A DNA stretch of 64,000 nt from Naegleria gruberi (taxonomy: Eukaryota). The notes beneath the pieces are model-generated. The model was not told the DNA's origin. It searched no databases and worked only from the letters and a program-made list of their open reading frames with translations. This document shows, piece after piece, positions 20 to 48,716 of the stretch. The first letter of the stretch is position 1; each line of letters begins with the position of its first letter. Where the stretch lies: the NCBI GenBank assembly GCA_000004985.1, contig GG738921.1. One strand, 5' to 3'. A program made the translations under genes and the position numbers.

Positions 20-1967
20 TTGGTGAATCGGGATTTTTCCTATCTTTTTGATGATCATCATGAGAACAGTGATTTGGAAAGGGAGTGGTCAATCTTTGAA
101 GATCGTAATATACCATCCATTCTGATTCAATTGAATTTTTTAGAAGATGATTTTCCAATCTCTCATGTATTGAGATTCTTTAGACATTTAGTTGGAGAAA
201 AGAATTTTAAACAATGGAGTAGTACAGAAGCCGATATTATCATTAATTGGGGTTCGGAGGGAAGAAGTTCAATGGATTTAATATTTAAGGAACTTGATGC
301 TCTTTCGTCTATTAATTTGAAAGGCATGGAGGCAGAGAATCAGGAACAAACAGTAAGAGAAATGATCTCAAATTGGAGAGAAAACAAGAGGTTTTTCATA
401 AGTGAAAACGATGTTCTAAACCCTTTCCGAGTTTTTAAAAAGATTAAGATCAAAATTCAAGGGTTTCAGGATAAATTTTCAAATCTGTATGAGGAACACC
501 CGAGACCAATTCGTTGTAAAAATTGCATCCATGTAACAAGTTCCCATCCCAAAACATTTTTCAATGAATATGATGTGATTATGTTTAATGGTTCCATCAA
601 ACATGATTATAAAACATGTACAACATTTGACAATCTTCCAAGAGACAAATTTGAAAAATTTGATGAAAAATGCAGGCTTTTCTCTATAGCATGGTAGATC
701 AAGTGNNNNNNNNNNNNNNNNNNNNNNNNNNNNNNNNNNNNNNNNNNNNNNNNNNAGCTCTCCCCATTGAATACAATCTCTCTTCATTCTCAAATCATAA
801 CAACAAGATTAATGAAGCCTTGATGGTCCGAATGAAAATGATTAACAATAACACTCGAGCAGATGATGAAGGCATACCTGAGCTTCTAATCCCTAACATT
901 TACAAAGATTCTTCTGCTGCTTTCAACATCTTTATGGTGTTTGATAAATATACATTCAAAGAGGCCCAAGATGAAGGAATTATTACTGAAGAAGAAATTA
1001 AAAGAGTAACCGAAAATAATCCAGTTATAATTCATGGTGGGAATGATGGTAAACTAATTTGTTCTGGATCTGCCTTTTTGTTACATCCTTGGTTCAATAG
1101 ACCTCAAGAATCTCAAACTCTATACTTCGCAACAGCTAGACACAATCTGTGCAAACAGATATTGAACAACTATGTGATTAAATTATCCACAATGTATGTC
1201 ACTGAGCATGTGCAAACTGATGTGTATCATCAAGACATTGGTTTAAACAATTATGATAAAATTCTTGCCACCCCATTAATTAAGAAGGATGTTGAATCCT
1301 TAATGTGTACATCAGATCCAGATATAACTTTTTTCAAAATCCATCTAGATGGTTTTTCCAATCATAGAATGGCATTTGAATTCTTTAGCAAAGCAAGATA
1401 TTTCATTCCAAAATCTGTAACGCAACTTTCAACAATTAATGATGAAAGCTATAATGTTGGAATAGCTTGTGTATTAGGAAAGTGGAGAGATGTGGATTTT
1501 GAAAGGTAAGTATTCAATTATTTAAGTAGTTATATTTTATGACAAGATTGGAAAACACTAGCCCAAGTATTGAGTGGACTGAATCATTAAGGCAATATCT
1601 GAACTCAACTAATCGACCTGGAGGTGTGGTTTGGTCATTTGGTCAGTCAAAAGGATTCAAAACTATTGGAAACATTGACTATATTTGTTATAATTGTGCC
1701 TCTGCACCTGGATGTAGTGGCGGAGCTTGTATTTTAATGAATCCAATCAGTAATCCTTATCCGTCCAAAGAACAATGTATCTCATTCATTGGTGTTCACA
1801 GAGGGTTTAGTCCACAACATGACTGTAACATTGCAACTCCATTCTCCATAGCGAAAGATCAATACAAGACACTCATCTATGCCAATATTAAGAATGATTT
1901 GCCAAGAAAGGGAAGAAGACAAATAGAAGAGTTTTTGGGTGAAAAAGGATCTTGTACTGTATTGTAA
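20..1967 (+). CDS. Trypsin-fold serine peptidase. The protease domain lies at about 760-1967 and has one intron at 1506-1546 (GTAAGT..AG). Because of the N-gap at 716-755 it is unclear whether the upstream ORF 20-697 belongs to the same gene.
   Basis: Catalytic-triad-like motifs are in the right order: TARHNL (His), QDIGL (Asp) and GCSGGAC (Ser; GxSGG). The donor GAAAG|gtaagt and acceptor gacaag|ATTGG keep the frame into ORF 1539-1967. Confidence 0.5.
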
Positions 1968-6426: not shown

Positions 6427-7529
6427 CTATTGAAAAATAATACTTTCAGAAAGGAAGGGCATTTCTTCAACACTCTTCTTCAGTGAAAACTCTTCATCCT
6501 TTCCTCCATATGTGAATACTCCAATAAAATTATTGTTATAACCAATCACTCGAATTGTTTCCCACATTTTAACAAGTTGATGTTCAATAAAAAGGTCAAA
6601 TTCAAACATTTGTTCAATTTGCTTATTTCTGCAATGAGGAGATGGAAGGATATTTTCTCTAATTGCCATCAATTCAACATTTGTATATTTCTTCTTTAGA
6701 GATGTAATAGTTTCACCTTTAATCTTCTTTGACAATAATCCAAAATCAATTTTTTCTTTAAATTCTTTCAAAACAGTTTCAAAAGACACCCCATTCGATG
6801 AATTGACGAATGAGGCCATATAACTATGCGATGAATCATTTGAACTTGTCATTGAAAATTCCTTAGGAAGACAATATTCACACTTTTTAAAAGGTTTAAA
6901 GATTTTAAAGTCTTCCTCATGAATTCCTTGAGTTTCATCTTTACCAATAATGATTTTTACAAACAAGATACCAGCAGCCTTTTTTCCATCTCTTAGAGGT
7001 AACATTTCTTCGTATTCCTTACCATACTCCAATTCTTCCGATTTAAGAGTCCAAGATGTACTTCCCAGAAAATCCTTAATACAACAATTGATATAGTAAA
7101 TAAGTAATAATAATAATATTATTAAATTTGATTCAATTAATACAAACAAATTATGAACTTACATCTTTTGAGAATCGATCGTAATCATAAACTTCAAAAA
7201 TCACTTCAATTCCCTTGTGCTGCCTATCTAAACAATCAAGGGAATGGAACGTCTTACTTTCATTCCATGAGGGATTTAGATTTTCCATCACTACGGAAGT
7301 TCTTTGCTCCCAAACCTTGTCTGAATTATTTGGAGGCAATCTTTCCTCTCCGACTGATCGTAATTTAATCACCACATACTATTTTAAATCAATTCATGTA
7401 TTAATTATTAATTGAAAATTAAAAGCAATAATACATTACAGGGTCCGAAAGATTATTCAGATCTGATGCTTTGAGTCCAGTGGCTTTATATGGAGAAATG
7501 ATGAGAGTATCAATTGATGAGAAGGGCAT
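6427..7529 (-). CDS. C2-domain protein, paralog A: complement(join(6427..7074,7163..7378,7440..7529)), 317 aa.
   Basis: Exon 0 encodes MPFSSIDTLIISPYKATGLKASDLNNLSDP and splits DP|YV. Exon 1 encodes YVVIKLRSVGEE...LNPSWNE...FEVYDYDRFSKD, a C2 fold signature. Introns are gtaatgt..aaaatag and gtaagt..attaag, and the exon lengths sum to a multiple of three. Confidence 0.7.
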
Positions 7530-7659: not shown

Positions 7660-8809
7660 CTAGAGAAAGAGGGTATTTTCTGAAACTCTGGCAACTTCAG
7701 CTTCACCCATTCTCAAAATACTATGAAGTGCATCTTGTGGTTCAATATAAATGTATAGTCCTAGTTTTCCATTTGAATGAGAAACAATACGGAAAGTTCC
7801 CCACATCCTTATTCCTCCCTTCTTTTCAAGTAAGAGAATGTACTCCATAATATTGGTAATTAATTTGTTTCTACAATGAGGATCTGGGTTAACATGTTCA
7901 TTCTTACTCTTAACTTCCACCTTGGAGTATTCCTTTTTCATGTCACTAATCTTTTGGTCACTCACTTGCTTGGCAATATCTGCAAACTTGGCATTGCTAT
8001 CGAATGGAATAAACTTGGTCAATAATACTTCAGCTCTCTTCATATCTGCAAAAACTGCATTATGCGCATCGGTTTCTTCACTTGAAGAGATGAGAGAAAA
8101 TTGTCTTGGGGTACAAATTTCAGCAAAACCAGATTGGAATGGGGAAATAAAGTTAAATTCCTTATCAACTCTATCTTGTTCATAACTCCAAATCTTGTAA
8201 CTGATATACAGTGTTCCCGATTTACAATCAGTTAATTCAAGGACCTCTGAATATTCCCTATCATGCTCAAGTTTATCACCATCAAGTAGAATTTCAGCTT
8301 GTCCAATAGGATCCTTTCAAAATGATGGATTGATGAATACATTTGAATTTAACACTTACATCCTTAGACAATAAATCCCAATCATAAACTTCAAACTTTA
8401 ACTTGATTCCCAAGCCAGTGTCAAGATACAATAAACTGTGGAATGTTTTATCCTCATTCCATTCGGGATTTAAGGTCTTTTTTTTGACGCTTGTTTTTTG
8501 TCTCCATTCCTTAGCTGTTTCCTTCATTATATCGTCAAATCTTTCATCATCAATGGCTGATTTTGCTTGTACAATCACATACTATTACAAGTCAATAAAC
8601 CAATACTAATTAACAATCACTTACAGGATCCTTTGGAAAGAGTCAATACATCAATCGAATAATAAATTCACTTACAGAAAATCCATTAAGATCAGCCTAT
8701 TACGATAATTAAGATGAATTGATAGCACCAATAAGAGTCAACCTACAGCCTCAAGATTTTTTGCGTGCTTGATTGTCACGGTTAATGTATCCATAGCTCT
8801 GAAAGGCAT
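7660..8809 (-). CDS. C2-domain protein, paralog B (tandem duplicate of A). Proposed structure is complement(join(7660..8313,8360..8581,8625..8630,8676..8696,8747..8809)), with two extra introns and a 6-nt micro-exon.
   Basis: It encodes MPFRAMDTLTVTIKHAKNLEA|ADLNGFS|DP|YVIVQAKS...KKKTLNPEWNE...FEVYDWDLLSKD|DPIGQAEILLD...PHCRNK...MWGTFRIV. This is collinear with paralog A (PHCRNK, MWETIRV). All junctions are GT..AG and the total length is 966 nt. Confidence 0.55.
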
Positions 8810-9121
8810 CTTTAAATTATGTTTGATAAAAATCTAGTAGCAATTGTTGAATCAGTGAAAATGAACACTTGATTGTTTGTTATTTTTTCTGTATTGCTTT
8901 TTGCTTGCTTAATATTGTTATTTACTTTTCAAATCCCATAGTACCTTATTAAAAGTTGTTAGGGACATGAAATTACCATTTCGGGAACGGTTTTTATATA
9001 ATGCCGAAAACCTAAACACCTTAATAGAGTATAACAATAATTTAAAGGTGGGTACTAGCAAAATATCAACAGATTTTTAATCAAGAGTGACTTCACTAGT
9101 TTATTACAACAAATGTTCAAT

Positions 9122-9866
9122 TTAAGCTGTAGTAGTGGTGTTTGAAGCAACTACTGGAGTAACAACAGTTTCAGTCTTCTTGGCCTTCTTAGATCCCTTC
9201 TTGACCTTCTTAACCTTCTTAGCACCCTTCTTAGCAGTCTTTTTTACCTTCTTAGCACCCTTCTTTGTACCCTTCTTGACCTTCTTGGCACCTTTCTTAG
9301 TGGACTTCTTAACCTTCTTAGCCTTCTTAGATCCCTTCTTGGCACCCTTCTTGACCTTCTTAACCTTCTTAGCAGTCTTCTTTGCCTTCTTAGTACCCTT
9401 CTTGGCAGATCTAACAGTCTTCTTTGCCTTCTTAGCACCCTTCTTGGTGGACTTCTTTGGTGTTTTCTTGACAGATCTTACAGTAGTCTTGGTGGACTTC
9501 TTGGCAACCTTCTTAACACCAGTTTTCTTTGGAGTCTTCTTTACAGATCTAACAGCAGTCTTCTTTGGGGAAGCCTTCTTGGTTGCCCTCTTTGTTGTTC
9601 TCTTGACAGATCTAACGGCCTTTGGCTTCTTTGGAGCAGCAACTCTAGTGGAGTTTCTTTGACTAAGAGTCTTGATAACGGTAGGTGGCTTCTTAGCTCT
9701 TGTGGTTTTAGTGGCTCTAACACCTCTAATTTTAGCCTTAGCCTCAGTCTTCCAATTGATAAGAATAAAAGCAACAATTAAAATTAGTACGTACAGCCAT
9801 AGTCATGCCGGCAACACAGGCCAACAAGGCAATCAAACACAATGTAAGGAAAAGCTTAGCACTCAT
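9122..9866 (-). CDS. Signal-peptide-bearing lysine-rich repeat protein with a histone H1 C-terminal-tail-like sequence: complement(join(9122..9748,9795..9866)), 232 aa.
   Basis: Exon 1 encodes MSAKLFLTLCLIALLACVAGMTMA, followed by a gtacgt donor and a 46-nt intron ending ttggaag. Exon 2 encodes TEAKAKIRGVRATK...KKASPKKTAVRSVKKTPKK...(KKGAKKVKKVKKGSKKAKK)n...TETVVTPVVASNTTTTA*. Exon 2 contains no Met, so exon 1 is needed for a start. The plus-strand ORF 9135-9662 is its antisense mirror. Confidence 0.6.
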
Positions 9867-10517
9867 GATTAATGTTGTTCGGTAATTTTTTTTGATGATG
9901 AAAACATACCTCAATCAAAACCGCTTTTTAAAAACTGAGGGACTGTAATCACATTACAGATGAAGTATGCACAACACACTAATACTGATACTCGCCTAAG
10001 GTTAGTGGATAACAATGGGTGGAAAAACAGGATCAGTGTTTGGTAGGTGAATGAAGTAACTTGAGTTTTGTTTTAACTTACGTTGTAATCTATGGAGAGA
10101 CTGTATGTGTAGAAACAGTTAGTAGTAAAATTGAGCAAATTGGGTAATGGAATGTTGTATCGGCGACAATGTGTTTAATTTTATTGAAATAATTGTGGAA
10201 TGTGGATTGTACATCAAAGAGAAAAGTCTTTGAAAATCATTACTGAACTTTGATAGATTCTTATATTCATAATTTTTTAATATTGACATTCACAAAAGAG
10301 AGATAAACAAAATAAAGATGAAATTCATATCTTTATTTGAAATGTTACTAAATAGTTAGTAGAGAGGTTATTAAACAAGCTTTATCTGTCAGTTTTCCTC
10401 CCAATTAATAGTTGTTTAGAGATATGAACAATTTCTCTCTTGTTAATCGAGGAAAATAAGTTTGCCCATAAAGAGCGGTGAGTTGAGCTTTGTTTATTTT
10501 CAAAAAGAAAAAAAAAC

Positions 10518-11486
10518 ATGTTCAAGATCTCATTCGTCGAGTTTTCAACACCTCAAACAATTAAATCAGCCTTATCTTGTGAGGTCAAGAATAAGAACAA
10601 CAATTCTCCAAAGAAACGAGGACGACCACCAAAGAAGAAACAACAGGAAAGAGATTCAAAAGTTGTCACATCCTCAGAATCAATGAAAGATGCTCAAAAG
10701 AATGATGTAAATCATCCTGCTGTGATCTTGACCGAATGTAAGAAGAGGAAATTGGAGAATGTTTGTGAGCAATACAGAACTCCTCCATTGGTGGTTTCTC
10801 CTCCTTCACTGCATGTTGAGGAGGATTCTAATACTCAAGCAACAACAACAACATTAGCAAGGAATAGAAAAATTATAAGAACCTCAATATCGCTTAAAGA
10901 AATATTGAATTATAATGGACAACAANNNNNNNNNNNNNNNNNNNNNNNNNNNNNNNNNNNNNNNNNNNNNNNNNNAAAGATGTACATTAACAAATTCTCT
11001 ATTGTTGACTTTACTCCTGCTCAGAATATTCAAACAAAAACTACTGATTTACCAAAGAAGAGAGGTAGACCACCTAAGAATTCACCACATGCAAACAAAT
11101 CAATGTTTATTAGGTCAACTGAGACAATGCCAATGAGGTATGAATTGACGAATAGAATGACAGACCAATTCAAGAAGGATAAACGAAGAAGAAGGGAAAA
11201 GAAAGCATGTAATAGTCCAAACACATCTAATTGCTCCACATCTAGTAGTACATCATCTTTGACTATTGTGCAAGAATTGAATAATTGTTTAGTTTCAGAC
11301 ACATTAGTTTCGTCTCTTCCAACAACGCATGCATCCACTCCTCAATCTAATATCACTACCACTAACGACAATACAACAACACATCTAGAATCCAATCTTA
11401 TCACCTCCAACAATAACAACACATCCAATTATAAACCTCCAAGAAAGATAAGATATTCGATATCCATCCAAGAATTATTAAATTGA
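10518..11486 (+). CDS. AT-hook (GRP) protein with two similar modules, one on each side of the assembly gap 10926-10975. These may be one gene or two tandem genes. Module 2 starts at ATG 10979.
   Basis: Module 1 reads MFKISFVEFSTP...SPKKRGRPPKKK...KIIRTSISLKEILN. Module 2 reads MYINKFSIVDFTP...LPKKRGRPPKNSP...KIRYSISIQELLN*. Both carry an AT-hook core RGRP. Confidence 0.55.
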   Translation: MFKISFVEFSTPQTIKSALSCEVKNKNNNSPKKRGRPPKKKQQERDSKVVTSSESMKDAQKNDVNHPAVILTECKKRKLENVCEQYRTPPLVVSPPSLHVEEDSNTQATTTTLARNRKIIRTSISLKEILNYNGQQXXXXXXXXXXXXXXXXXKMYINKFSIVDFTPAQNIQTKTTDLPKKRGRPPKNSPHANKSMFIRSTETMPMRYELTNRMTDQFKKDKRRRREKKACNSPNTSNCSTSSSTSSLTIVQELNNCLVSDTLVSSLPTTHASTPQSNITTTNDNTTTHLESNLITSNNNNTSNYKPPRKIRYSISIQELLN

Positions 11487-11840: not shown

Positions 11841-13274
11841 TCAATTAGTTTCTCACCTTGCCGCCTTTCTAATTTTGTCCTTTAGCCAATTCAAGAATGT
11901 TAAAAGTTTTTCGTTGAGGGGATTCTTATCAAGGGTTCTCTCCTTAGTAATACTGTACAATACAATGCCAGCTACAAGAATAAATAAGCTCTCAATATCA
12001 AGGTTCGATAATTTTTGTTGGAAAGCAGGTCCAGCAATAAATCTTTAAAAAAATCAATTATTCGAAAGTAAACTAAATTACTTACGGAATCATAAAGAAG
12101 AGATTGGACATTACCAAACGAGAAGTTAGAGCAATCATGGCCAAAGTTGAAGATCCATGCTTGAAAACAACCAATTGAGTAACATTAAATAAAACATTGA
12201 AAACTTCAAATAAAATTGCAACCCAATAAACTCCATCACAAATGTCACCCTTCAAAGAATTCATTCCAACAACACATTTCAATGAATATAACATGTAATT
12301 AGGTAGGTCAGAAGCAGATTTCACAATACTATTTGGATTCCAAGGAATTAATAAAAATGGAATGAAAAATAAAATTCCAAATAATAATTGAAATAATTCA
12401 ATCCATGCGACCATATAGAAAACATCTAATTTCTCCTTTTTTAGATAATGTTCAATGTAAACATTGGCAATGGCTTGGAAAAATGTGGAAATTAATAGAA
12501 CGAGAGCCCAAATCCATTCTGTTGAGCTAGTTCCAGACCTTCCTGAAAGAAATAAAGGCAAAACATTTAAAATTACTCCAATGATTACAATAAAAGTTCC
12601 TCCAAATTGTAGAATATTATATCTCACCGATAAGAATATCATGGAAACGAGCATATTATTGATGATAATGGTTTGATTCATTGCCACGTTTACACTACCT
12701 GAAACATTTGATGAGGCAATGACCAATATCAAGTTTGCTAAATTCGTTAAAAATCCCATAATTACAAACTATTCCAATAATTGATTAGAAACATTCCTCC
12801 CATTTGAAAACATACTCTATAAACAGGAAATTTTCTCATTTCCTTTGTAACACTCCTAGTTCCAAACATTTTAAACCAAGCAATTGGCCAATAAACAATA
12901 TTTGACATGGTTGGAATTAAAATCGATGACAGGAAATATCCATAATGTTTCATTTGTGTTGACAATCTAACAATCAGAACAAAATTAATAGATCTAGAGA
13001 AGGCCATCACCAAAACCACCAAACACAAGGCCCCAAACACAACATACTTGTTGGTGTGAAGGAAATTCCTCACAGCACCTAAATTCCTTCGGAATGTTGA
13101 AGTTGTGTGAATTTGCATCTCACAATTATTGACATTTCCTTGAACAGAATTCTGATAACCAGGATCCTGAACCTCAACATGAAGACCTTGTTGCAGTTGT
13201 GAATTATTGTCGTTATGTAGTGATGGAACAATCAAGGGCACATGTTCATCATCTTTTCGTGCCATTTTTTTCAC
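11841..13274 (-). CDS. Multi-pass membrane transporter (about 10 TM helices). It is possibly CRT-like / nucleotide-sugar-transporter-like within the DMT superfamily. It has at least three exons at about 12762..13274, 12087..12759 and 11841..12045.
   Basis: ORFs 12762-13274 and 12082-12759 are hydrophobic throughout. A gtaagt donor lies at FFMI-CC| and an acceptor at tttttaaag|A, extending into ...PFIAGPAFQQ...LFILVAGIVLYSITKE...KIRKAAR*. The family assignment is by overall topology only. Confidence 0.4.
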
Positions 13275-26900: not shown

Positions 26901-29900
26901 TTATGTTTGTAAAAAGTTCAATAGTGATTCCAAAGATTCTGCAACTTGAATAAATTCTGGTCTTTGATTAGGTTCATTATTCCAACATTCTTTCATAATT
27001 TCGATATAATCCGAAAGAGATAGTTCTAATTTTGAAATTCCATATTTATCAATTTCCTTTTTTGAAATATTATTTTCGATCCATGCTTGATCTGTAGTAA
27101 TAATTCTTGGTCTATGTCCTTTGATGACTTCCATCAATATGGAAAATACTGTATTGGTGTCTGACAATTCATCCGAAAATGGGACCATTTCGTATAATAA
27201 TTCCCACAAAATAATTCCAAAAGAGTAAACATCAATTTTAGTAGTAGGACCTCTATGATGATTAGAAAGTAACTCCTATTAGAAATTATATTTAAATTAT
27301 TCAGAAATGTTATCAAAAACTTACAGGTGCCTTTTAAAATAGTTTAAATTAGAATTCGAATAAAACTTACAATATCTTTACATCAAAATTAAGAAACTGA
27401 TCTAATTTCGTATTACTTACATAATAGAGTTCCAACATTTGTGGTCATTGTTGCAGAATTCCCATTAACAATCTTACTTAATCCAAAATCTCCCACTTTT
27501 GCATTCATATTCTTGTCGAGTAGAATATTTGCACATTTCAAATCTCTGTGAATTATCTTGTTTGGCCTAATTGAATGTAAATAGACCATTCCTTTACATA
27601 CATCATTCAGAATATTTAATTTTGTAACGTAACTCAATTTCTTTTTTCCTATTTTTGATTCGTAAATTGCTCCATCTAAGGCACCATTCGAAAGATATTC
27701 CACCTTAATATTCAATTCATTAAGTACATCAATTGTATTCAAATACTTACAATCATATATTTTGATTCAGTGGATAGAGAAATTCCATAACAACTAACAA
27801 TTGAAGGATGTCGTAGGGAGCTCATCAATAAGGCCTCCCTTTCAAATTCTTCATCATCAGTGTCTGTCTTGAATTGCTTAATGGCAACATCTGTTTTGTT
27901 CCAAAGTCCTTTATAAACCACACCCGACGCTCCTTCACCAATCTTTTTCACGATAGTAATATCTGAAATTGGAATAATGTACCTTTCAGGAGTTTCATTA
28001 TTCAAACTATTCTCAAGTAAGGGCAAGTTTTCGATACCATTTCCAAATACAAAGTATTTGTTTTTGAATTGATCTTCAATTCTCTTCTCCGCCTTTTCTT
28101 GTTTTCTCAATTTGAACAACTTTTTCATTACATAAACGATTACAAAAATTGTAAAAGAAAAAATGATGGTGAGTGAGATAGTTCCCAAAACTGCTGATGG
28201 AATAATTATCTCAAATGGAATGGATTGACAGTAATAATACTTGCCTCCTCCCAACACCAATGAAAATCCTGCTGGACATTTCATTACTTCCACATTAACA
28301 AACGAGGTAATAACATCCAAGTCTGTAATTGAAAATCTCAACTCAAAATGGTCAGAATTGAAATCCTTATCAACGAGTAGGTATTGTAAATTGTTGAGCA
28401 TGATATATCCTTCTCCGACTTGATAATCCTGCTTTTGTAGAATGATATTCTTCACAGAAGAAACTACCAAAAGTGGGGAGTCACTAGAAAGCTTTGAAGT
28501 GCTTTGATTATATTGATCATAAATGAATAATTTGAAATCAAGTGGTTGGCCAGGATACACTTGAATGGATTTGCCTTCTGCAACTCTGAATTGACCATCC
28601 TGTCCTCTAAATTCAATTCTTTGGCTCACCAATTCTGAACCGATATCATTTCCATAATAGTAAGCTCTGTTTTCACCAATCATTCGATATTTCGTATTTG
28701 GATTTAAGGAACTCGATGTGGATGATTTGTAGATACAACCTCCAACTTGAAATGCAATATTATCCTGACAATAACTGTCAGTTGTGGCAATACCACTTAA
28801 TAGATTGAGGAGATAGATGGCTCCTCCCTTCTTTGCCTCATTTCCAATAAATGAACAGTTTGAGAGAGTTAGGGAATTACTGATCTCAATTCTAATGGCA
28901 CCTCCAAATTCTGCAACATTATTCGAAAAGAAACAATTGAAAACTATTAAGCTATTGCCATTGTAAAAAAGAGGTGAACCACCCATATTGTTTCTGAACT
29001 GACACGTCCTTACCATTGAAGCTGTTTGCTCAGATGTCATGATTGAAACAAAAGAGGAATCTTTCAGAACTCTATTGGAAATGAATTTTGATTCGTCTAT
29101 TACTATTGGAGCTACAATTGTATTAATATCCCAATAGATATCCTTAATAGATAGTATTGTTCCAGTATTGTTATTAAATGTACAATTAAATACTTGAACA
29201 GTTTTACCTTTTTGAATGGAAATCAAATTGGCAAATATATTGTTAGTTACATTCCAGTTTCGAATAGAGATTTCGGTAGAACCAATCAAGCTCAGATAGG
29301 ATTCGGATATATCACCAATAACTCGATCAATAATACTAATTCCATCCAAAACAACTTGAAAAACTATCATAATCTGAATAGTTGGAATGGAGCTAGCCTC
29401 TGTAATATTCAACACGTTTCCAGCATTGAAAGCACATAAAGAACTAGCTGTCCAATGACAATTGTTAATTTTCACAGTTCCAAAAAAATCAATATTTAGA
29501 ATTGCATTCAATAATTTAGAATTATCTATTTGAATAGACTCTGTCTTACTCAATCTTACTTTCGTTTCAGAAATGGTCGATTCAAATACTCGAAATGTCT
29601 CCACCATTGCATTTTTCAATCCAAAGTTGTTGAAATTTGACTGATTAATAAGTAAATTTTTCACATTTAATTCACTCATTACCAACAAATCACTATGGCA
29701 TTGATCAAAACTGAGAATTTCCAATTTCCTATCCAAACTCAATGCTCTACCAACTCCTCCATTCACAAAATGAAATCTCTCAATTACACTCTGCCTATTA
29801 ACGAGCCACTCACATCCAGGATATATAAAACCATTAGTATCCATTCCAATCCAACTCAATTCAAATCTATTGGTATATTCGGAAAAGTCAAACAATTGTC

Positions 29901-34425: not shown

Positions 34426-36612
34426 ATGGGACAAAATCCTTCTTCACCCTCTCAGAATAATAGCAATCATCTCGTTGCTCATAATCATCATCATCATCAA
34501 CAGCAGCAACAACAACCCCATCATCATCACCATCATCAACATCAACAGTGTGATGTCTTACCGAATTCAACTCATCTAATAGCAGACATTTCAGAGGAAG
34601 AACTTACAACAGATTCAACCTCGGCAACAACACCAACATCATCAACCATGACAGCTTCTCTCTCATCAAATCTTATATCGAGGAGAAGATCCTCTCTCCC
34701 CCATAAATTGAATGACCATAGTACAATGAGTGGAGAACATGATGAAACGAAACGATCCCTTGGTAAAGTATTCAAAAGTGCCACACATTTAAACGCTCAT
34801 GAAGATATTGAGAATTATTCATTGGGAAAACAATTGTGGGAGGTTGAAAAAGCAAGTAATAGTTGTAGTAGTGATGAGAGTCAGCAGCAGCAGCAGCAAC
34901 AAGACTCCCATCACGAGAGTCCAGCAATGATAATATGCCAGACTCCAAGAAATACGAAAATTTAAATATCAAATCGAAACGAAACAATACTCTACCACTA
35001 ACAATAACTGCTAAGGAGAATGAATCACCAGTTCATCGCTCGAATACTCATCCTCATCTTTCCTCTCGCAATTTTCAAGATCACCAACAACAACCTGTAA
35101 CATATTCCAATAATCTCAATACTCCAAATTCTGCCACCTACAAAACTTCCCAGAAATTAATCAAACTAAAGCCATTTTCTACACCAGATTTGAAAAGGAG
35201 TGCACTTTTAAATAGTAGGAACAATCAAGAGGAAGTAAGTGTATTTAATTTGATTTCTAATAGTTTCGAATAATTTCGAATAGATGAATGGAGTAGATAC
35301 AGATACTTTAACACCTACAGTGAGTGACGATATTTCATTTAATTCATCATCTGTCTATTCTCCACCACAACATGCCAATTCTTTCAGAAATAGTGTCCTC
35401 TCAACAACAAGTAGTGCCAGTGGAGGATCCAACAATAATCACAATAATAGTCTCATCAATTCTCTTTTCCCATCTCTTCCGGTTGACAGGACTAAAATGA
35501 CTGATGAGGAATTTACTGTCTACAAGGAGGTTGTCAGTAAACCAGTTTATGAAAAAATTCTGAAAAGTAAACCTCTGACAGCTAAATGTGGATTCAATGA
35601 AGAGTATATGAAAGAGTTTGCTTTTGAACTTTCTGATGAGGAAGAATTGAAAAATACCTATCTCACAACAGACTGGGTTGAAACAGCAAAACTCCTCCAA
35701 AGAACAAGAAGTATCGACGAGACCACTCTCAATCTTGACCCAAAAACTCTACTCGAACCAATAATTAATACAGTTTCTAAACGTGATTCTCTCTCCTCTA
35801 TTGAAGAGGAAGTGAAGAAAATTGTAATGGAAGAACAAGAGGTTCTCAAACAAGAAATCAAAATCAAGCTAATAATTACTGAAATTGCAAATGCACCTAC
35901 AAAAACTCTGAGACAATTTCTTTCTCCTGTTTTGCACAAGATGAATGTTCTACCAGAGATTGGTTGGTTTCACTCTGCTATTCTCGTAGGGAAGTGGAGA
36001 CTTGACTTTAATGATAGTAGTGTAGTAATACCGAGAAAGCTTGTTAGTCAGGCTGCTGTTATTACTACAGACATTGAAACAATTAGTACATTGGAGGATC
36101 TCAATAGAGTGATTGATGGCATGTCGAGATGCATTTGTAAATGGAATAGAAATATAACGTATAAACAAACTGGAGGAGATAGAATTAACACAGGGAACTG
36201 TCAGGATTTTGTGGAAGATTTGTTGGATAGTATTGGAGTTAAAATGAATCTTTCTGGAAGTATGAAGAAATTTGTAAAACGTTTGAGAAAGACAGGAAAG
36301 TGTTCCCTTGTCTTTGAAATGGATAAGAGATTCAGAGAATATTTTGGAATGGAATCTAAACGGGTGAAGTTCAAATCACACGAACAATTAGATTTGTTTG
36401 TGAGAAAATTACTTGACAAGTGTCCAAATTTTGCTCAAGAATTCAATGATGAATGGATACTCTTACAAAGTTTTGATAGAACCTACTGGTTGAAACACAT
36501 TACGTACACTCACATTGAAGAGTATAAACCATGCAAGGTCATTAGAGATAATAAGGGAGTTTCCGATTGTCCATTTCACGAACCCGAGTTCACTAACTTG
36601 CTTAAAGACTAG
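34426..36612 (+). CDS. Protein with an N-terminal MGQNPSS start (a possible N-myristoylation signal) and a C-terminal LRAT/H-REV107-like (NlpC/P60 superfamily) domain. It has one clear intron at 35235..35283 and one unresolved frame discontinuity near 34930.
   Basis: It reads MGQNPSSPSQ...HNHHHHQQQQQQPHHHHHHQHQQ, joins ...NNQEE|gtaagt..cgaatag|MNGVDTD, and carries the C-terminal H-box WFHSAILVGKW and NCEHF-like box GNCQDFVEDLL. Confidence 0.5.
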
Positions 36613-45840: not shown

Positions 45841-48716
45841 ATGGCAAACTCCTTTTCTTTCATCTTGTTTGCCATCTTGGTTTTGAATTGGGCCTTGTTA
45901 GCCAATTGTAATTTGACTTTTTCACAACAAACATTCAACACTCTCCTCAACTCAACCCAAACTTCAACTCTATCACTGACAATGTACATGGGAGGTGGAA
46001 CAACCATCAAAAACAGTAACAACAGCACATGTGGAATGTCTGTGGATAATCCATGTACAAACTTTAATCAATTATTATTAACTTTTAATTGGACACTCTT
46101 TAGTCAATTTGAGAATTTCACAAAAGCAACATCGGCAGGTGAAAGAAACGTTCACTTGAAGATACTGATACTTCCAGATGGCAGTATTTTCTGTCCTATC
46201 AATCCAGTTAATTTATCTCCTTCAATGAATTATCATTTAGAATTTACGAAACTAGTCGAATCATCAACAATAACACCCATCTTGACCTGCCTCAACACAC
46301 AAGATGGAAATGGCATTTCCATTCCTNNNNNNNNNNNNNNNNNNNNNNNNNNNNNNNNNNNNNNNNNNNNNNNNNNNNNNNNNNNNNNNNNNNNNNNNNN
46401 NNNNNNNNNNNNNNNNNNNNNNNNNNNNNNNNNNNNNNNNNNNNNNNNNNNNNNNNNNNNNNNNNNNNNNNNNNNNNNNNNNNNNNNNNNNNNNNNNNNN
46501 NNNNNNNNNNNNNNNNNNNNNNNNNNNNNNNNNNNNNNNNNNNNNNNNNNNNNNNNNNNNNNNNNNNNNNNNNNNNNNNNNNNNNNNNNNNNNNNNNNNN
46601 NNNNNNNNNNNNNNNNNNNNNNNNNNNNNNNNNNNNNNNNNNNNNNNNNNNNNNNNNNNNNNNNNNNNNNNNNNNNNNNNNNNNNNNNNNNNNNNNNNNN
46701 NNNNNNNNNNNNNNNNNNNNNNNNNNNNNNNNNNNNNNNNNNNNNNNNNNNNNNNNNNNNNNNNNNNNNNNNNNNNNNNNNNNNNNNNNNNNNNNNNNNN
46801 NNNNNNNNNNNNNNNNNNNNNNNNNNNNNNNNNNNNNNNNNNNNNNNNNNNNNNNNNNNNNNNNNNNNNNNNNNNNNNNNNNNNNNNNNNNNNNNNNNNN
46901 NNNNNNNNNNNNNNNNNNNNNNNNNNNNNNNNNNNNNNNNNNNNNNNNNNNNNNNNNNNNNNNNNNNNNNNNNNNNNNNNNNNNNNNNNNNNNNNNNNNN
47001 NNNNNNNNNNNNNNNNNNNNNNNNNNNNNNNNNNNNNNNNNNNNNNNNNNNNNNNNNNNNNNNNNNNNNNNNNNNNNNNNNNNNNNNNNNNNNNNNNNNN
47101 NNNNNNNNNNNNNNNNNNNNNNNNNNNNNNNNNNNNNNNNNNNNNNNNNNNNNNNNNNNNNNNNNNNNNNNNNNNNNNNNNNNNNNNNNNNNNNNNNNNN
47201 NNNNNNNNNNNNNNNNNNNNNNNNNNNNNNNNNNNNNNNNNNNNNNNNNNNNNNNNNNNNNNNNNNNNNNNNNNNNNNNNNNNNNNNNNNNNNNNNNNNN
47301 NNNNNNNNNNNNNNNNNNNNNNNNNNNNNNNNNNNNNNNNNNNNNNNNNNNNNNNNNNNNNNNNNNNNNNNNNNNNNNNNNNNNNNNNNNNNNNNNNNNN
47401 NNNNNNNNNNNNNNNNNNNNNNNNNNNNNNNNNNNNNNNNNNNNNNNNNNNNNNNNNNNNNNNNNNNNNNNNNNNNNNNNNNNNNNNNNNNNNNNNNNNN
47501 NNNNNNNNNNNNNNNNNNNNTTGGAATAGCATTAGGTTTTGGAATATTCTTTGTGTGGAAAATTGTAAAGAAATTGAGAAAACTGAAAAGTAAGGAGAAG
47601 GCAGAGAAACAAATTGAAGAAAAACTTTTAGACAAGCGACTTATTTTCAATATGAATGACGAGGAGGATGAATATTATGAGGGCTCCACACCAAATATTG
47701 AAAGAAGCAAATCATCTTATGGGAAAGTATCTGAAAAGGAGTTAGTTTCTTCATTGATTGACAGTGAAAAGAAGAAATCAAAACATTCTTTCAGTTTTTC
47801 ATCCTCTTACATTATTCCAATTGAAGACATATCAATTATTAAAAAGATTGGAGAAGGAGGCGCAGCTAATGTATATTATGGTACATGGACCAATATTAAA
47901 GTGGCTATCAAGTCACTCAAGATTGACAGTTTTGATGATGATTTTGAGAATGAAGCAGCCATCCTCAGTTTAATTAGACATCCAAACATTCTGACATTCT
48001 ATGGAGTATGTTTGACTGATAAGAGTCGATATATTGTGACTGAATATATGGAAAATGGCTCTCTAGACAGGTATATATTTTTGAATAAGAACAGAGCATT
48101 GAATATTGACCTATTCAAATCAAATATTGGAATTTTGTGTGGAATTGTGGATGGTATGCAATATTTACACTCTCTTAAACCTTCAATTATTCACAGAGAT
48201 TTGAAATCGAGTAATATATTGTTGGACGAAAGAAATACTCCAAAAGTTTCTGATTTTGGTCTTGTTAAAGTATTGGGAAACAATACAATCAGTCAAATTA
48301 CAAAAGGAATTGGTACAGTGTATTATTTAGCTCCAGAAACATTCATTGCTGAACATCAAATTGAAAATAAGGAAGAGGCAACCAAGTTGGACATTTACAG
48401 TTTTGCAATAATCATGTGGGAATTATTCTTTCGAATGAGTCCTTATCATCATGTGAAAAATCCATTCAAAGTGCCTCAAATGGTTGTCAATGGAGAAAGA
48501 CCTCAAATTCCCTTCAATATTGAAAATGATACGGAAATCAAAGAATGGCTTTCAATTCAAGCATTGGAAATTTCATCGTCTGACAATTCTTTCATTAATG
48601 GTATTAAGAAATACTTCTCACTCATTCTCCAATGTTGGAATCAAAATCCATTACAAAGACCTACATTCCTGACAATTAGAAGAGAATTGGATGAGATTTA
48701 CAATCTAATCGGTTGA
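45841..48716 (+). CDS. Receptor-like protein kinase, a paralog of the 26901-30279 gene. Its ectodomain is mostly lost in the 1.2-kb assembly gap.
   Basis: Signal reads MANSFSFILFAILVLNWALLANC. After the gap, TM reads GIALGFGIFFVWKIV. Kinase motifs are IGEGGAANVYYGTWTNIKVAIKSLK, HRDLKSSNILLDE, VSDFGLVKV, GTVYYLAPE and DIYSFAIIMWELF. Confidence 0.65.
46327..47520. other. Assembly gap (run of N). There are smaller gaps at 716-755 and 10926-10975.
   Basis: Uninterrupted n characters. ORFs translated as X-runs across them are artefacts. Confidence 1.

What the first reader, a model, noticed from the sequence alone, without database searches (positions are those of the whole stretch)
8582..8809. 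Tandem C2-domain paralogs differ by two extra introns and a 6-nt micro-exon (GATCCT) in paralog B. The duplicated donor regions point to intron gain by tandem duplication.
Paralog A (6427-7529) encodes ...KASDLNNLSDP|YVVIK with one intron at DP|YV. Paralog B encodes the collinear ...NLEA|ADLNGFS|DP|YVIVQ but needs three introns (50, 45 and 43 nt) in the same stretch, with DP on its own 6-nt exon. The last two introns are recognisably similar: gtaagtgaatttattattcgattgatgtattgactctttccaaag and gtaagtgattgttaattagtattggtttattgacttgtaatag. The exon ends preceding them, GGATTTTCT and AGGATCCT, are similar too. This is what a tandem duplication of exon-end plus intron would leave. It is the same architecture as the kinase micro-exons at 27.3 kb, so it may be a recurrent process in this genome.
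Basis: seen in the sequence. Interest (0 to 1): 0.6.

Follow-up and report, generated by a model that had tools for sequence, protein, structure and literature searches.

The report
Six-base micro-exon in Naegleria C2 gene
A Naegleria gruberi calcium-binding (C2) gene very probably carries a 6-base exon between two 45-base introns. The reference annotation skips this exon; the extra introns look like lineage-specific gains, but copying of the neighbouring intron is not shown.

Summary
The window is Naegleria gruberi. Gene B (minus strand, 8809-7660) needs three phase-0 introns of 50, 45 and 43 nt in its first 31 codons. These leave GATCCT (8630-8625) as a 6-nt exon encoding Asp-Pro of the invariant C2 motif SDPY.

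With that exon, B aligns without gaps to paralog A and to N. gruberi and N. lovaniensis homologs. The reference annotation (NAEGRDRAFT_75101, 319 aa) is the same model without the micro-exon. It therefore lacks a Ca2+-ligand Asp.

Intron positions in nine family genes from three Naegleria species show three things:
- The D|D intron is universal.
- The DP|Y intron is shared only with paralog A.
- B's introns 1 and 2 occur nowhere else, so they are B-lineage gains.

Micro-exons recur. A kinase at 27.3 kb has 5-nt and 6-nt micro-exons, and the 5-nt one is needed to keep the reading frame. An N. fowleri paralog has a 3-nt micro-exon that its N. lovaniensis ortholog lacks.

The tandem-duplication mechanism is weakly supported. 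Intron 2 and intron 3 share mainly GTAAGTGA and a branch-site-like TATTGACT at the same spacing. After conditioning on splice signals, p is 0.02-0.08. An unlinked intron is as similar to intron 2 as intron 3 is. The exon ends are not similar. A simple tandem duplication would also duplicate the DP codons, which is not seen.

The parts
7660..8809 (-). Gene B: C2-domain gene, 5 exons, 321 aa with the micro-exon. It corresponds to NAEGRDRAFT_75101, annotated as 319 aa without it.
   Evidence: Spliced translation. Pfam C2, E = 4e-21. 56% identical to NAEGRDRAFT_82085 and 49% to N. lovaniensis C9374_012115, with no gap in the N-terminal segment. The exon set without 8630-8625 translates exactly to P0129.
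8747..8809 (-). B exon 1 (M1-A21)
8697..8746 (-). B intron 1: 50 nt, GTAGGT...AATAG, phase 0, between A21 and A22. Unique to B.
   Evidence: Reading through hits TGA at once. It is also used in the JGI model. Absent from the 8 other family genes.
8676..8696 (-). B exon 2 (ADLNGFS, 21 nt)
8631..8675 (-). B intron 2: 45 nt, GTAAGTGA...TTGAC...CCAAAG, phase 0, between S28 and D29. Unique to B.
   Evidence: absent from the other family genes
8625..8630 (-). 6-nt micro-exon GATCCT. It encodes D29-P30 of the SDPY motif in Ca2+-binding loop 1.
   Evidence: Flanked by AG| and |GTAAGT. Restores the invariant D29 P30. Aligns to the SDPY motif of synaptotagmin C2 domains. Omitted in the annotated protein P0129.
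8582..8624 (-). B intron 3: 43 nt, GTAAGTGA...TTGAC...AATAG, phase 0, between P30 and Y31. Same position and phase as paralog A's first intron.
8360..8581 (-). B exon 4
8314..8359 (-). B intron 4: 46 nt, at D104|D105. This position is conserved across the family.
   Evidence: The same position is present in all 9 family genes.
7660..8313 (-). B exon 5, including the stop codon
   Evidence: Comparison with a 98%-identical strain across exons 4-5 gives 7 synonymous and 2 nonsynonymous codon changes in B.
6427..7529 (-). Gene A: tandem paralog, 317 aa, with introns 7439-7379 (DP|YV) and 7162-7075 (SKD|D). It is annotated only as a 192-aa C-terminal fragment.
27276..27420 (-). Kinase gene intron cluster: introns 27420-27376, 27370-27331 and 27324-27276, separated by micro-exons ATATT (27375-27371) and GCACCT (27330-27325). 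It reads GTLLYIAPELL.
   Evidence: Skipping the 5-nt exon gives an in-frame TGA. The paralogous kinase at 47.8-48.7 kb has no intron here.

Best explanation
Gene B is a functional N. gruberi C2-domain gene. Three short phase-0 spliceosomal introns interrupt its first 31 codons.

The oldest of the three is intron 3, at DP|Y, a position shared with the tandem paralog A. Introns 1 (A|A) and 2 (S|D) were gained later in the B lineage. Intron 2 landed only 6 nt upstream of intron 3. This stranded GATCCT as a micro-exon that encodes Asp29-Pro30, including a Ca2+-ligand Asp of the SDPY motif.

Each intron carries its own GTAAGT or GTAGGT donor, a YTRAY branch-like motif and an AG acceptor. The three are presumably removed one by one by intron definition, and the hexamer is then retained. 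Skipping it stays in frame and gives the currently annotated 319-aa protein, which lacks the Asp.

The source of intron 2 is unresolved. It may be a diverged copy of intron 3 inserted without touching the coding sequence, for example by reverse splicing plus reverse transcription, or by templated repair. I put this at about 0.3. A simple tandem duplication of exon end plus intron does not fit.

Shown here: the sequence, reading frames and splice signals; the homology; the comparative intron positions; purifying selection on exons 4-5; and recurrence of micro-exons.

Inferred: actual inclusion of the micro-exon in mRNA, the direction and order of the gains, and the mechanism.
For: Gene model:
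- Gapless N-terminal alignment of B (MPFRAMDTLTVTIKHAKNLEAADLNGFSDPYVIVQ) to NAEGRDRAFT_82085 and the N. lovaniensis ortholog. By my own count from that alignment, 26/35 residues are identical to 82085, against 56% identity overall.
- D29 and P30 are invariant in the family alignment.
- The C2 domain aligns to synaptotagmin SDPYV.
- The outer splice sites are the same as in the JGI model.
- Both sub-introns are of the modal 40-50 nt length seen in the window.

Functional gene: 7 synonymous against 2 nonsynonymous codon changes in B, and 3 against 0 in A, compared with a 98%-identical strain contig.

Gain of introns 1 and 2: both are absent from A, N. lovaniensis P0003, N. fowleri P0004, and P0012, P0013, P0015, P0014 and P0018. 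Precise loss of introns 1 and 2 while keeping an intron 6 nt away is implausible for cDNA-mediated loss.

Recurrence:
- The kinase 5-nt micro-exon is essential for the reading frame.
- The N. fowleri 3-nt micro-exon GAT restores DDFIG and is absent from the N. lovaniensis ortholog.

Possible copying: intron 2 and intron 3 are the top 5'-anchored pair of 253, with a 37-nt 70% repeat.
Against: No transcript data could be reached. The reference annotation (EFC37175.1) omits the micro-exon, and skipping it is in frame. Exclusive or frequent skipping therefore cannot be excluded.

The gene structure of the closest paralog, NAEGRDRAFT_82085, could not be retrieved. The gains cannot be placed before or after the B/82085 split.

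The position shared with A could reflect parallel gain. N. fowleri and N. lovaniensis paralogs have an intron 1 nt away, in phase 2.

The evidence for copying is weak:
- p = 0.023 and 0.08 after conditioning on splice signals.
- The unlinked intron 12085-12043 is as similar to intron 2 as intron 3 is.
- The top-scoring pair in the window is between unrelated genes.
Confidence: 0.6

Rival explanations
1. Introns 1 and 2 were gained independently, from sources other than the neighbouring intron (filler DNA at a repaired break, or an unrelated intron). The resemblance of intron 2 to intron 3 is only shared splice signals and T-rich composition in two introns of the same modal length.
For: Conditioned on GTAAGT, TTGAC and the 3' trinucleotide, p = 0.023; the interior gives 12/23 matches, p = 0.08. 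Intron 12085-12043 matches intron 2 at 31/45. An unrelated pair (35235 against K3) scores higher than intron 2 against intron 3. The N. fowleri flanking introns are not similar. Intron 1 resembles neither of the others.
Against: Intron 2 and intron 3 are still the best 5'-anchored pair of 253. K2-K3 in the kinase ranks 6th of 190. Random placement does not explain why new introns land 3-6 nt from existing ones in three genes.
Confidence: 0.45
2. A tandem duplication of [exon end + intron 3] created intron 2. A 6-nt deletion of the first GATCCT followed, to restore SDPY.
For: A 37-nt, 70% direct repeat at spacing 51. Both units are preceded by CT|GTAAGTGA. Small local duplications or templated indels occur in these introns between strains. 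There is a triple tandem 10-mer at 35254-35283.
Against: Exon-end similarity is at background level. Tandem Repeats Finder finds nothing. The model needs two steps, because a simple duplication gives DPDP, whereas B aligns without gaps to all homologs. See also the weak conditioned p-values.
Confidence: 0.12
3. The region 8675-8582 is one 94-nt intron, as in the reference annotation. GATCCT is not spliced in, or is a recently abandoned exon. B then makes a 319-aa protein without the SDPY Asp.
For: The annotated protein NAEGRDRAFT_75101 is exactly this model. Skipping is in frame. A second N. fowleri annotation skips the analogous 3-nt exon.
Against: AG|GATCCT|GTAAGT encodes exactly the two missing invariant residues, at a chance probability of about 1e-6. 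Gene finders and read aligners routinely miss 3-6-nt exons (general knowledge). The kinase in the same window needs a 5-nt micro-exon to stay in frame. 94 nt would be longer than all 23 curated introns of the window.
Confidence: 0.1
4. All three N-terminal introns are ancestral to the family and were lost everywhere else.
For: The N. lovaniensis ortholog lacks all N-terminal introns, which is compatible with cDNA-mediated loss of several introns at once.
Against: It requires independent precise losses of introns 1 and 2 in A and in the P0004/P0012 lineage, while an intron 6 nt away is kept. Eight of nine genes lack them.
Confidence: 0.04

Closest known systems
Micro-exons (exons of 15 nt or fewer) in animals and plants, which are often missed by annotation (own knowledge)
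   Same: A tiny internal exon with canonical AG/GT flanks. It encodes conserved residues and is absent from the reference gene model.
   Different: Here the flanking introns are only 43-45 nt, in an intron-poor protist. Recognition must therefore be by intron definition. No tissue-specific regulators are implied. Inclusion is inferred, not observed.
Intron gain by tandem genomic duplication (the Rogers model and later case studies; own knowledge; mechanisms reviewed in PMC3488318)
   Same: A new intron next to a similar-looking sequence in the same gene.
   Different: The defining repeat of exon plus intron is not detectable. A simple duplication would alter the coding length, which is not seen.
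Propagation of an intron to nearby sites in the same gene, attributed to reverse splicing (reported for Oikopleura dioica; own knowledge, not checked here)
   Same: The new intron lies close to an older one in the same gene. The similarity is confined to the intron. The coding sequence is untouched.
   Different: The similarity here is weak (about 70%, mostly splice signals), and no reverse-transcription step can be tested.
Introner elements and intron transposition families (Micromonas, some fungi; PMC3488318)
   Same: Lineage-specific intron gain. Some unlinked N. gruberi introns share motifs.
   Different: No near-identical multi-copy family is seen among about 23 introns. The shared TTTCKAATAR motif sits at intron 3' ends and looks like a splice signal.
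Intron gains in Daphnia associated with short repeats and double-strand-break repair (PMC3488318)
   Same: Recent lineage-specific gains at arbitrary, non-protosplice sites.
   Different: No flanking short direct repeats are evident around intron 2. The GCT|...|GCT around intron 1 is explained by the conserved Ala-Ala codons.
Synaptotagmin/PKC-type Ca2+-binding C2 domain (PF00168)
   Same: E = 4e-21 to Pfam C2. It aligns to synaptotagmin-1 and -3 C2 domains, with the Asp residues of DxxxxSDPY and DxDxxxxxD in place.
   Different: A single C2 domain is followed by a C-terminal region of about 190 aa. That region has no Pfam match, and the only full-length homologs retrieved are from Naegleria.

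Membership tests
C2 domain (PF00168) | Profile match above the Pfam gathering score | tested here: met
   B scores 75.5 bits and A 67.7 bits, against a cut-off of 22.
C2 domain (PF00168) | Ca2+-ligand aspartates of loops 1 and 3 (Syt1 D172, D178, D230, D232, D238 by my own knowledge) | tested here: met
   Alignment to Syt1 and Syt3 places B's D23, D29 (micro-exon), D97, D99 and D105 at the aligned Asp positions. Ca2+ binding itself was not tested.
Micro-exon | An internal exon of a few nucleotides with a canonical acceptor upstream and donor downstream | tested here: met
   ccaaAG|GATCCT|GTAAGTga
Micro-exon | Inclusion restores frame or conserved residues | tested here: met
   It restores the invariant D29-P30. 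The frame is kept either way.
Micro-exon | Presence in mature mRNA | not testable with these tools
   No N. gruberi transcript data could be reached. The exact 321-aa protein is not in the 15-billion-sequence collection.
Intron gain by tandem duplication | Tandem repeat unit that includes exonic sequence plus intron | tested here: not met
   Exon ends are no more similar than 37-48% of random intron pairs. TRF reports no array.
Intron gain by tandem duplication | The two intron copies are significantly similar beyond splice signals | tested here: inconclusive
   p = 0.0016 unconditioned. p = 0.023 and 0.08 conditioned on signals.
Intron gain by tandem duplication | Duplication is compatible with the unchanged coding sequence | tested here: not met
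   Any unit of intron plus 6 nt duplicates two codons, yet B is gapless against its homologs. A second, compensating deletion would be needed.
Introner-like element family | Many near-identical intron copies in unrelated genes | tested here: not met
   Within the window only: the best unrelated pair shares repeated 3' motifs, and the multiple alignment has 49% mean identity with no family structure. A genome-wide test was not possible.
Lineage-specific intron gain | Intron absent at the homologous position in paralogs and orthologs, with the flanking coding sequence collinear | tested here: met
   Introns 1 and 2 are absent in 8 of 8 other family genes. NAEGRDRAFT_82085 was not retrievable.

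The most novel reading that the evidence does not exclude
Naegleria genomes have an active local process that seeds new short introns within 3-6 nt of existing ones, for example by re-insertion or templated copying of a neighbouring intron. This would produce clusters of introns separated by 3-6-nt micro-exons, which current annotations of N. gruberi and N. fowleri systematically skip or mis-model. It would give a tractable protist system for catching intron gain in the act, since at least one gain post-dates the N. fowleri/N. lovaniensis split.
Probability: 0.25. Interest if true: 0.65.

Novelty: new member of a known kind. Interest (0 to 1): 0.4.

Why it matters
Three consequences follow if the micro-exon is used.

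First, the reference protein NAEGRDRAFT_75101 is wrong. It lacks a Ca2+-coordinating Asp. The same kind of error exists in both N. fowleri annotations of a paralog.

Second, the case shows that an intron-poor excavate can handle 3-6-nt exons between roughly 45-nt introns.

Third, it gives several datable lineage-specific intron gains clustered next to older introns. The mechanism of intron gain is still an open question (PMC3488318).

A genome-wide census with long-read cDNA could test directly whether such clusters arise by local intron copying.

Tried and rejected
- Retrieval of N. gruberi loci for NAEGRDRAFT_82085 and for P0011 failed; neither is on record.
- A scan of JGI metagenome contigs with the family alignment found no relatives.
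- The ENA strain contig L002 (98% identical) starts at window 8543. That is 39 nt short of intron 3, so it gives no polymorphism data for the micro-exon.
- Tandem Repeats Finder on 8300-8900 found nothing.
- I tested whether intron 3 arose by duplication of the start of exon 4 (GTAAGTGATTGT against G|TATGTGATTGT, 11/12, in-register ATTGA). Its 0.49 identity equals the background maximum of the same test on 23 introns, so I rejected the idea.
- AAAGGATCCT occurs both at the micro-exon and at the start of exon 5. Such 13/15 repeats are expected about once per 541-nt region, and both sites are an acceptor followed by Asp-Pro codons. I treated this as chance or constraint.
- An RNA structure bringing the splice sites together: z = +0.49, nothing.
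- Similarity of the N. fowleri introns Ia and Ib: p = 0.24.
- My interim claim that gene B is unannotated was wrong. The annotated protein was hidden as a member of a 90% cluster.
- Literature searches for Naegleria micro-exons or intron gain found nothing specific.

Full report
**Identity of the window.** Paralog A's C-terminal 192 residues are 100% identical to a 'predicted protein [Naegleria gruberi]' on a 207,235-bp scaffold. Gene B without its micro-exon translates exactly to NAEGRDRAFT_75101 / EFC37175.1 on the same scaffold. The window is therefore N. gruberi nuclear DNA, at 30-36% GC. It has three assembly gaps, none near the finding.

**Check of the observation.** On the minus strand, gene B runs from the ATG at 8809 to the TAG at 7662-7660. 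The only reading that gives a continuous C2 domain uses these parts:
- Exons 8809-8747, 8696-8676, 8630-8625, 8581-8360 and 8313-7660.
- Introns of 50 nt (GTAGGT..AATAG), 45 nt (GTAAGT..CAAAG), 43 nt (GTAAGT..AATAG) and 46 nt, all phase 0.

Paralog A (7529-6427) has introns of 61 and 88 nt at DP|YV and SKD|D. A and B are 35% identical end to end (E = 1e-65). Both match Pfam C2.

**Is the 6-nt exon real?**
- With it, B's N-terminus (MPFRAMDTLTVTIKHAKNLEAADLNGFSDPYVIVQ) aligns without a gap to N. gruberi NAEGRDRAFT_82085 (56% identity overall) and N. lovaniensis C9374_012115 (49%).
- D29 and P30 are invariant in the family alignment.
- They align with the SDPY motif of synaptotagmin C2 domains. 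By established knowledge, the Asp of that motif is a Ca2+ ligand.
- The hexamer is bounded by AG| and |GTAAGT. I estimate from base composition that the chance of this, together with the exact missing codons, inside a 94-nt AT-rich intron is about 1e-6.
- Both sub-introns have the modal 40-50 nt length of the window's introns. A merged 94-nt intron would be longer than all 23 curated introns.
- The reference annotation nevertheless merges intron 2, the hexamer and intron 3 into one intron, giving ...GFS|YVIVQ.... This is in frame.
- No transcript data were reachable. Inclusion is therefore a strong inference, not an observation.
- Independent support comes from the TKL-type kinase at 27.3 kb. 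It needs micro-exons ATATT and GCACCT to read GTLLYIAPELL, and omitting the 5-nt exon gives an immediate TGA.

**Is B a live gene?** A metagenomic contig from a 98%-identical strain covers window 8543-6829. Across it, B shows 7 synonymous and 2 nonsynonymous codon changes, and A shows 3 and 0. This indicates purifying selection. By my count from the alignment, the N-terminal 35 residues are more conserved against 82085 (26/35) than the protein average. This argues against the upstream exons being dead remnants.

**Which introns are old and which are new?** I mapped intron positions in nine family genes.
- The D|D(F/P)(I/L)G intron is present in all nine.
- A DP|Y phase-0 intron occurs only in A and B.
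- N. fowleri FDP41_005743 and its N. lovaniensis ortholog C9374_011260 have an intron 1 nt upstream, in phase 2.
- Three genes have an intron at TQ|I, and one has an intron at DK|D.
- B's intron 1 (A|A) and intron 2 (S|D) occur in no other gene.

Losing introns 1 and 2 precisely, several times, while keeping an intron 6 nt away is implausible. They are therefore best read as gains in the B lineage. The structure of 82085 could not be fetched, so the gains cannot be placed relative to the B/82085 split.

**A parallel, datable case.** The N. fowleri gene reads ACGAGT|93-nt intron|GAT|49-nt intron|GATTTC. Including the 3-nt exon restores DWDRFTSDDFIGRCELTL, matching the N. lovaniensis ortholog. 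That ortholog has a single intron at TSD|D. The extra intron therefore arose after the two species split. Neither N. fowleri annotation includes the 3-nt exon: one derails at this point and the other skips it.

**Test of the tandem-duplication idea.**

In its favour:
- Intron 2 and intron 3 form a 37-nt, 70% ungapped direct repeat at spacing 51.
- They are 34/47 identical with gaps.
- They rank 2nd of 190-210 gapped pairs and 1st of 253 5'-anchored pairs among the window's short introns, with shuffle p about 0.0016.
- In the kinase, K2-K3 ranks 6th of 190, although K1-K2 ranks 123rd.

Against it:
- The shared bases are chiefly GTAAGTGA and TATTGACT. The latter is a YTRAY branch-like motif lying 10-12 nt from the acceptor. 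In two introns of equal modal length it falls in register automatically. A third, unlinked intron (12085-12043) has ATTGA at the same place.
- Conditioning on the donor hexamer, TTGAC and the last three bases gives p = 0.023. The 23-nt interior matches at 12/23, p = 0.08.
- Intron 2 is as similar to the unlinked intron 12085-12043 (31/45) as to intron 3. The best pair in the window joins two unrelated genes, owing to a recurrent 3' motif TTTCKAATAR (10 sites against 1.6 expected).
- Any tandem unit made of the intron plus six exonic bases would duplicate two codons (DPDP). It would otherwise require an ancestor lacking two residues of the invariant SDPYV. B is gapless against all homologs, so a second, compensating 6-nt deletion has to be assumed.
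- The N. fowleri pair shows no similarity (p = 0.24), although introns between those species are close to saturation.

I conclude that copying of intron 3 is possible, at about 0.3. If it happened, an intron-only insertion fits better than a segmental tandem duplication. Candidates are reverse splicing plus reverse transcription, or template switching during repair. A 9-nt templated-looking indel between strains in B's intron 4 shows that such local events occur.

**What remains striking.** New introns sit 3-6 nt from existing ones in three genes: B, the kinase and the N. fowleri paralog. My rough calculation gives probabilities of about 0.01, 2e-4 and 0.02 for these three cases under random placement along the coding sequence. 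Some local process, or a strong ascertainment effect, is at work. The review literature treats the mechanisms of intron gain as open, and duplication of existing introns as rare in most lineages (PMC3488318). Full-text searches found no description of micro-exons or recent intron gain in Naegleria.

**Verdict.**
- The reading 'extra introns gained in B, micro-exon, recurrent architecture' is supported.
- The reading 'gained by tandem duplication of exon end plus intron' is not supported beyond a weak hint.
- The case is a new instance of known phenomena (micro-exon, lineage-specific intron gain) in an organism where they had not been noted.
- The practical consequence is a corrected gene model.
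- Interest is moderate.

Noticed in passing
window 6427-7529 (-): Paralog A is annotated in N. gruberi only as a 192-aa 'predicted protein' starting at M126 of my 317-aa model. The annotation therefore lacks the whole C2 domain, although the gene has just two ordinary introns.
   Followed up: partly
window 27276-27420 (-): The kinase gene has three consecutive introns (45, 40 and 49 nt) separated by 5-nt (ATATT) and 6-nt (GCACCT) micro-exons across the YIAPE motif. The 5-nt exon is needed for the reading frame. The paralogous kinase at 47841-48710 (+) has no intron in this region.
   Followed up: partly
L003 6403-6547 (N. fowleri VFQX01000048.1): FDP41_005743 has a 3-nt micro-exon GAT (L003 6496-6498) between introns of 93 and 49 nt. 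The NCBI model (318 aa) loses DFIGRCELTLTANE, and the CAG4708169.1 model (330 aa) skips the codon. The N. lovaniensis ortholog has a single intron here.
   Followed up: yes
window 35254-35283 (+), 27276-27285 (-), 12058-12067 (-) and 5 other sites: The motif TTTCKAATAR occurs 10 times against 1.6 expected. The three sites named here lie at or near the 3' end of curated introns; the other five were not examined. It includes three tandem copies at 35254-35283. It looks like a fused branch-site and acceptor signal very close to the AG.
   Followed up: partly
window 8349 (B intron 4) and 7431-7433 (A intron 1), compared with L002: A 98%-identical strain in ENA metagenome ERZ929261 (PRJEB11402) carries a 9-nt insertion in B intron 4 that creates the palindrome ATTGAATAT/ATTCAAT. 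It also has a 3-nt slippage deletion in A intron 1.
   Followed up: partly
window 8625-8634 and 8308-8317 (-): AAAG|GATCCT occurs both at the micro-exon and at the acceptor of exon 5, which also starts with Asp-Pro. AGGATCCT is an 8-nt palindrome. I judged this compatible with chance plus acceptor and codon constraints.
   Followed up: partly
window ~9100-9870 (-): The gene upstream of B encodes a signal-peptide-like N-terminus, one short intron, and then a very lysine-rich, repetitive (KKxxKK) protein.
   Followed up: no
window 706-755, 10926-10975, 46327-47520: Runs of N (assembly gaps). The last one explains the apparent 13.5% GC in the 46-48 kb composition bin.
   Followed up: yes
L003 6156-6239 and L004 1641-1729: The N. 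fowleri and N. lovaniensis paralogs carry an intron in the Pro codon of SDPY (phase 2). This is 1 nt from the phase-0 DP|Y intron of N. gruberi A and B. It is either a 1-nt slide or a gain hotspot.
   Followed up: partly
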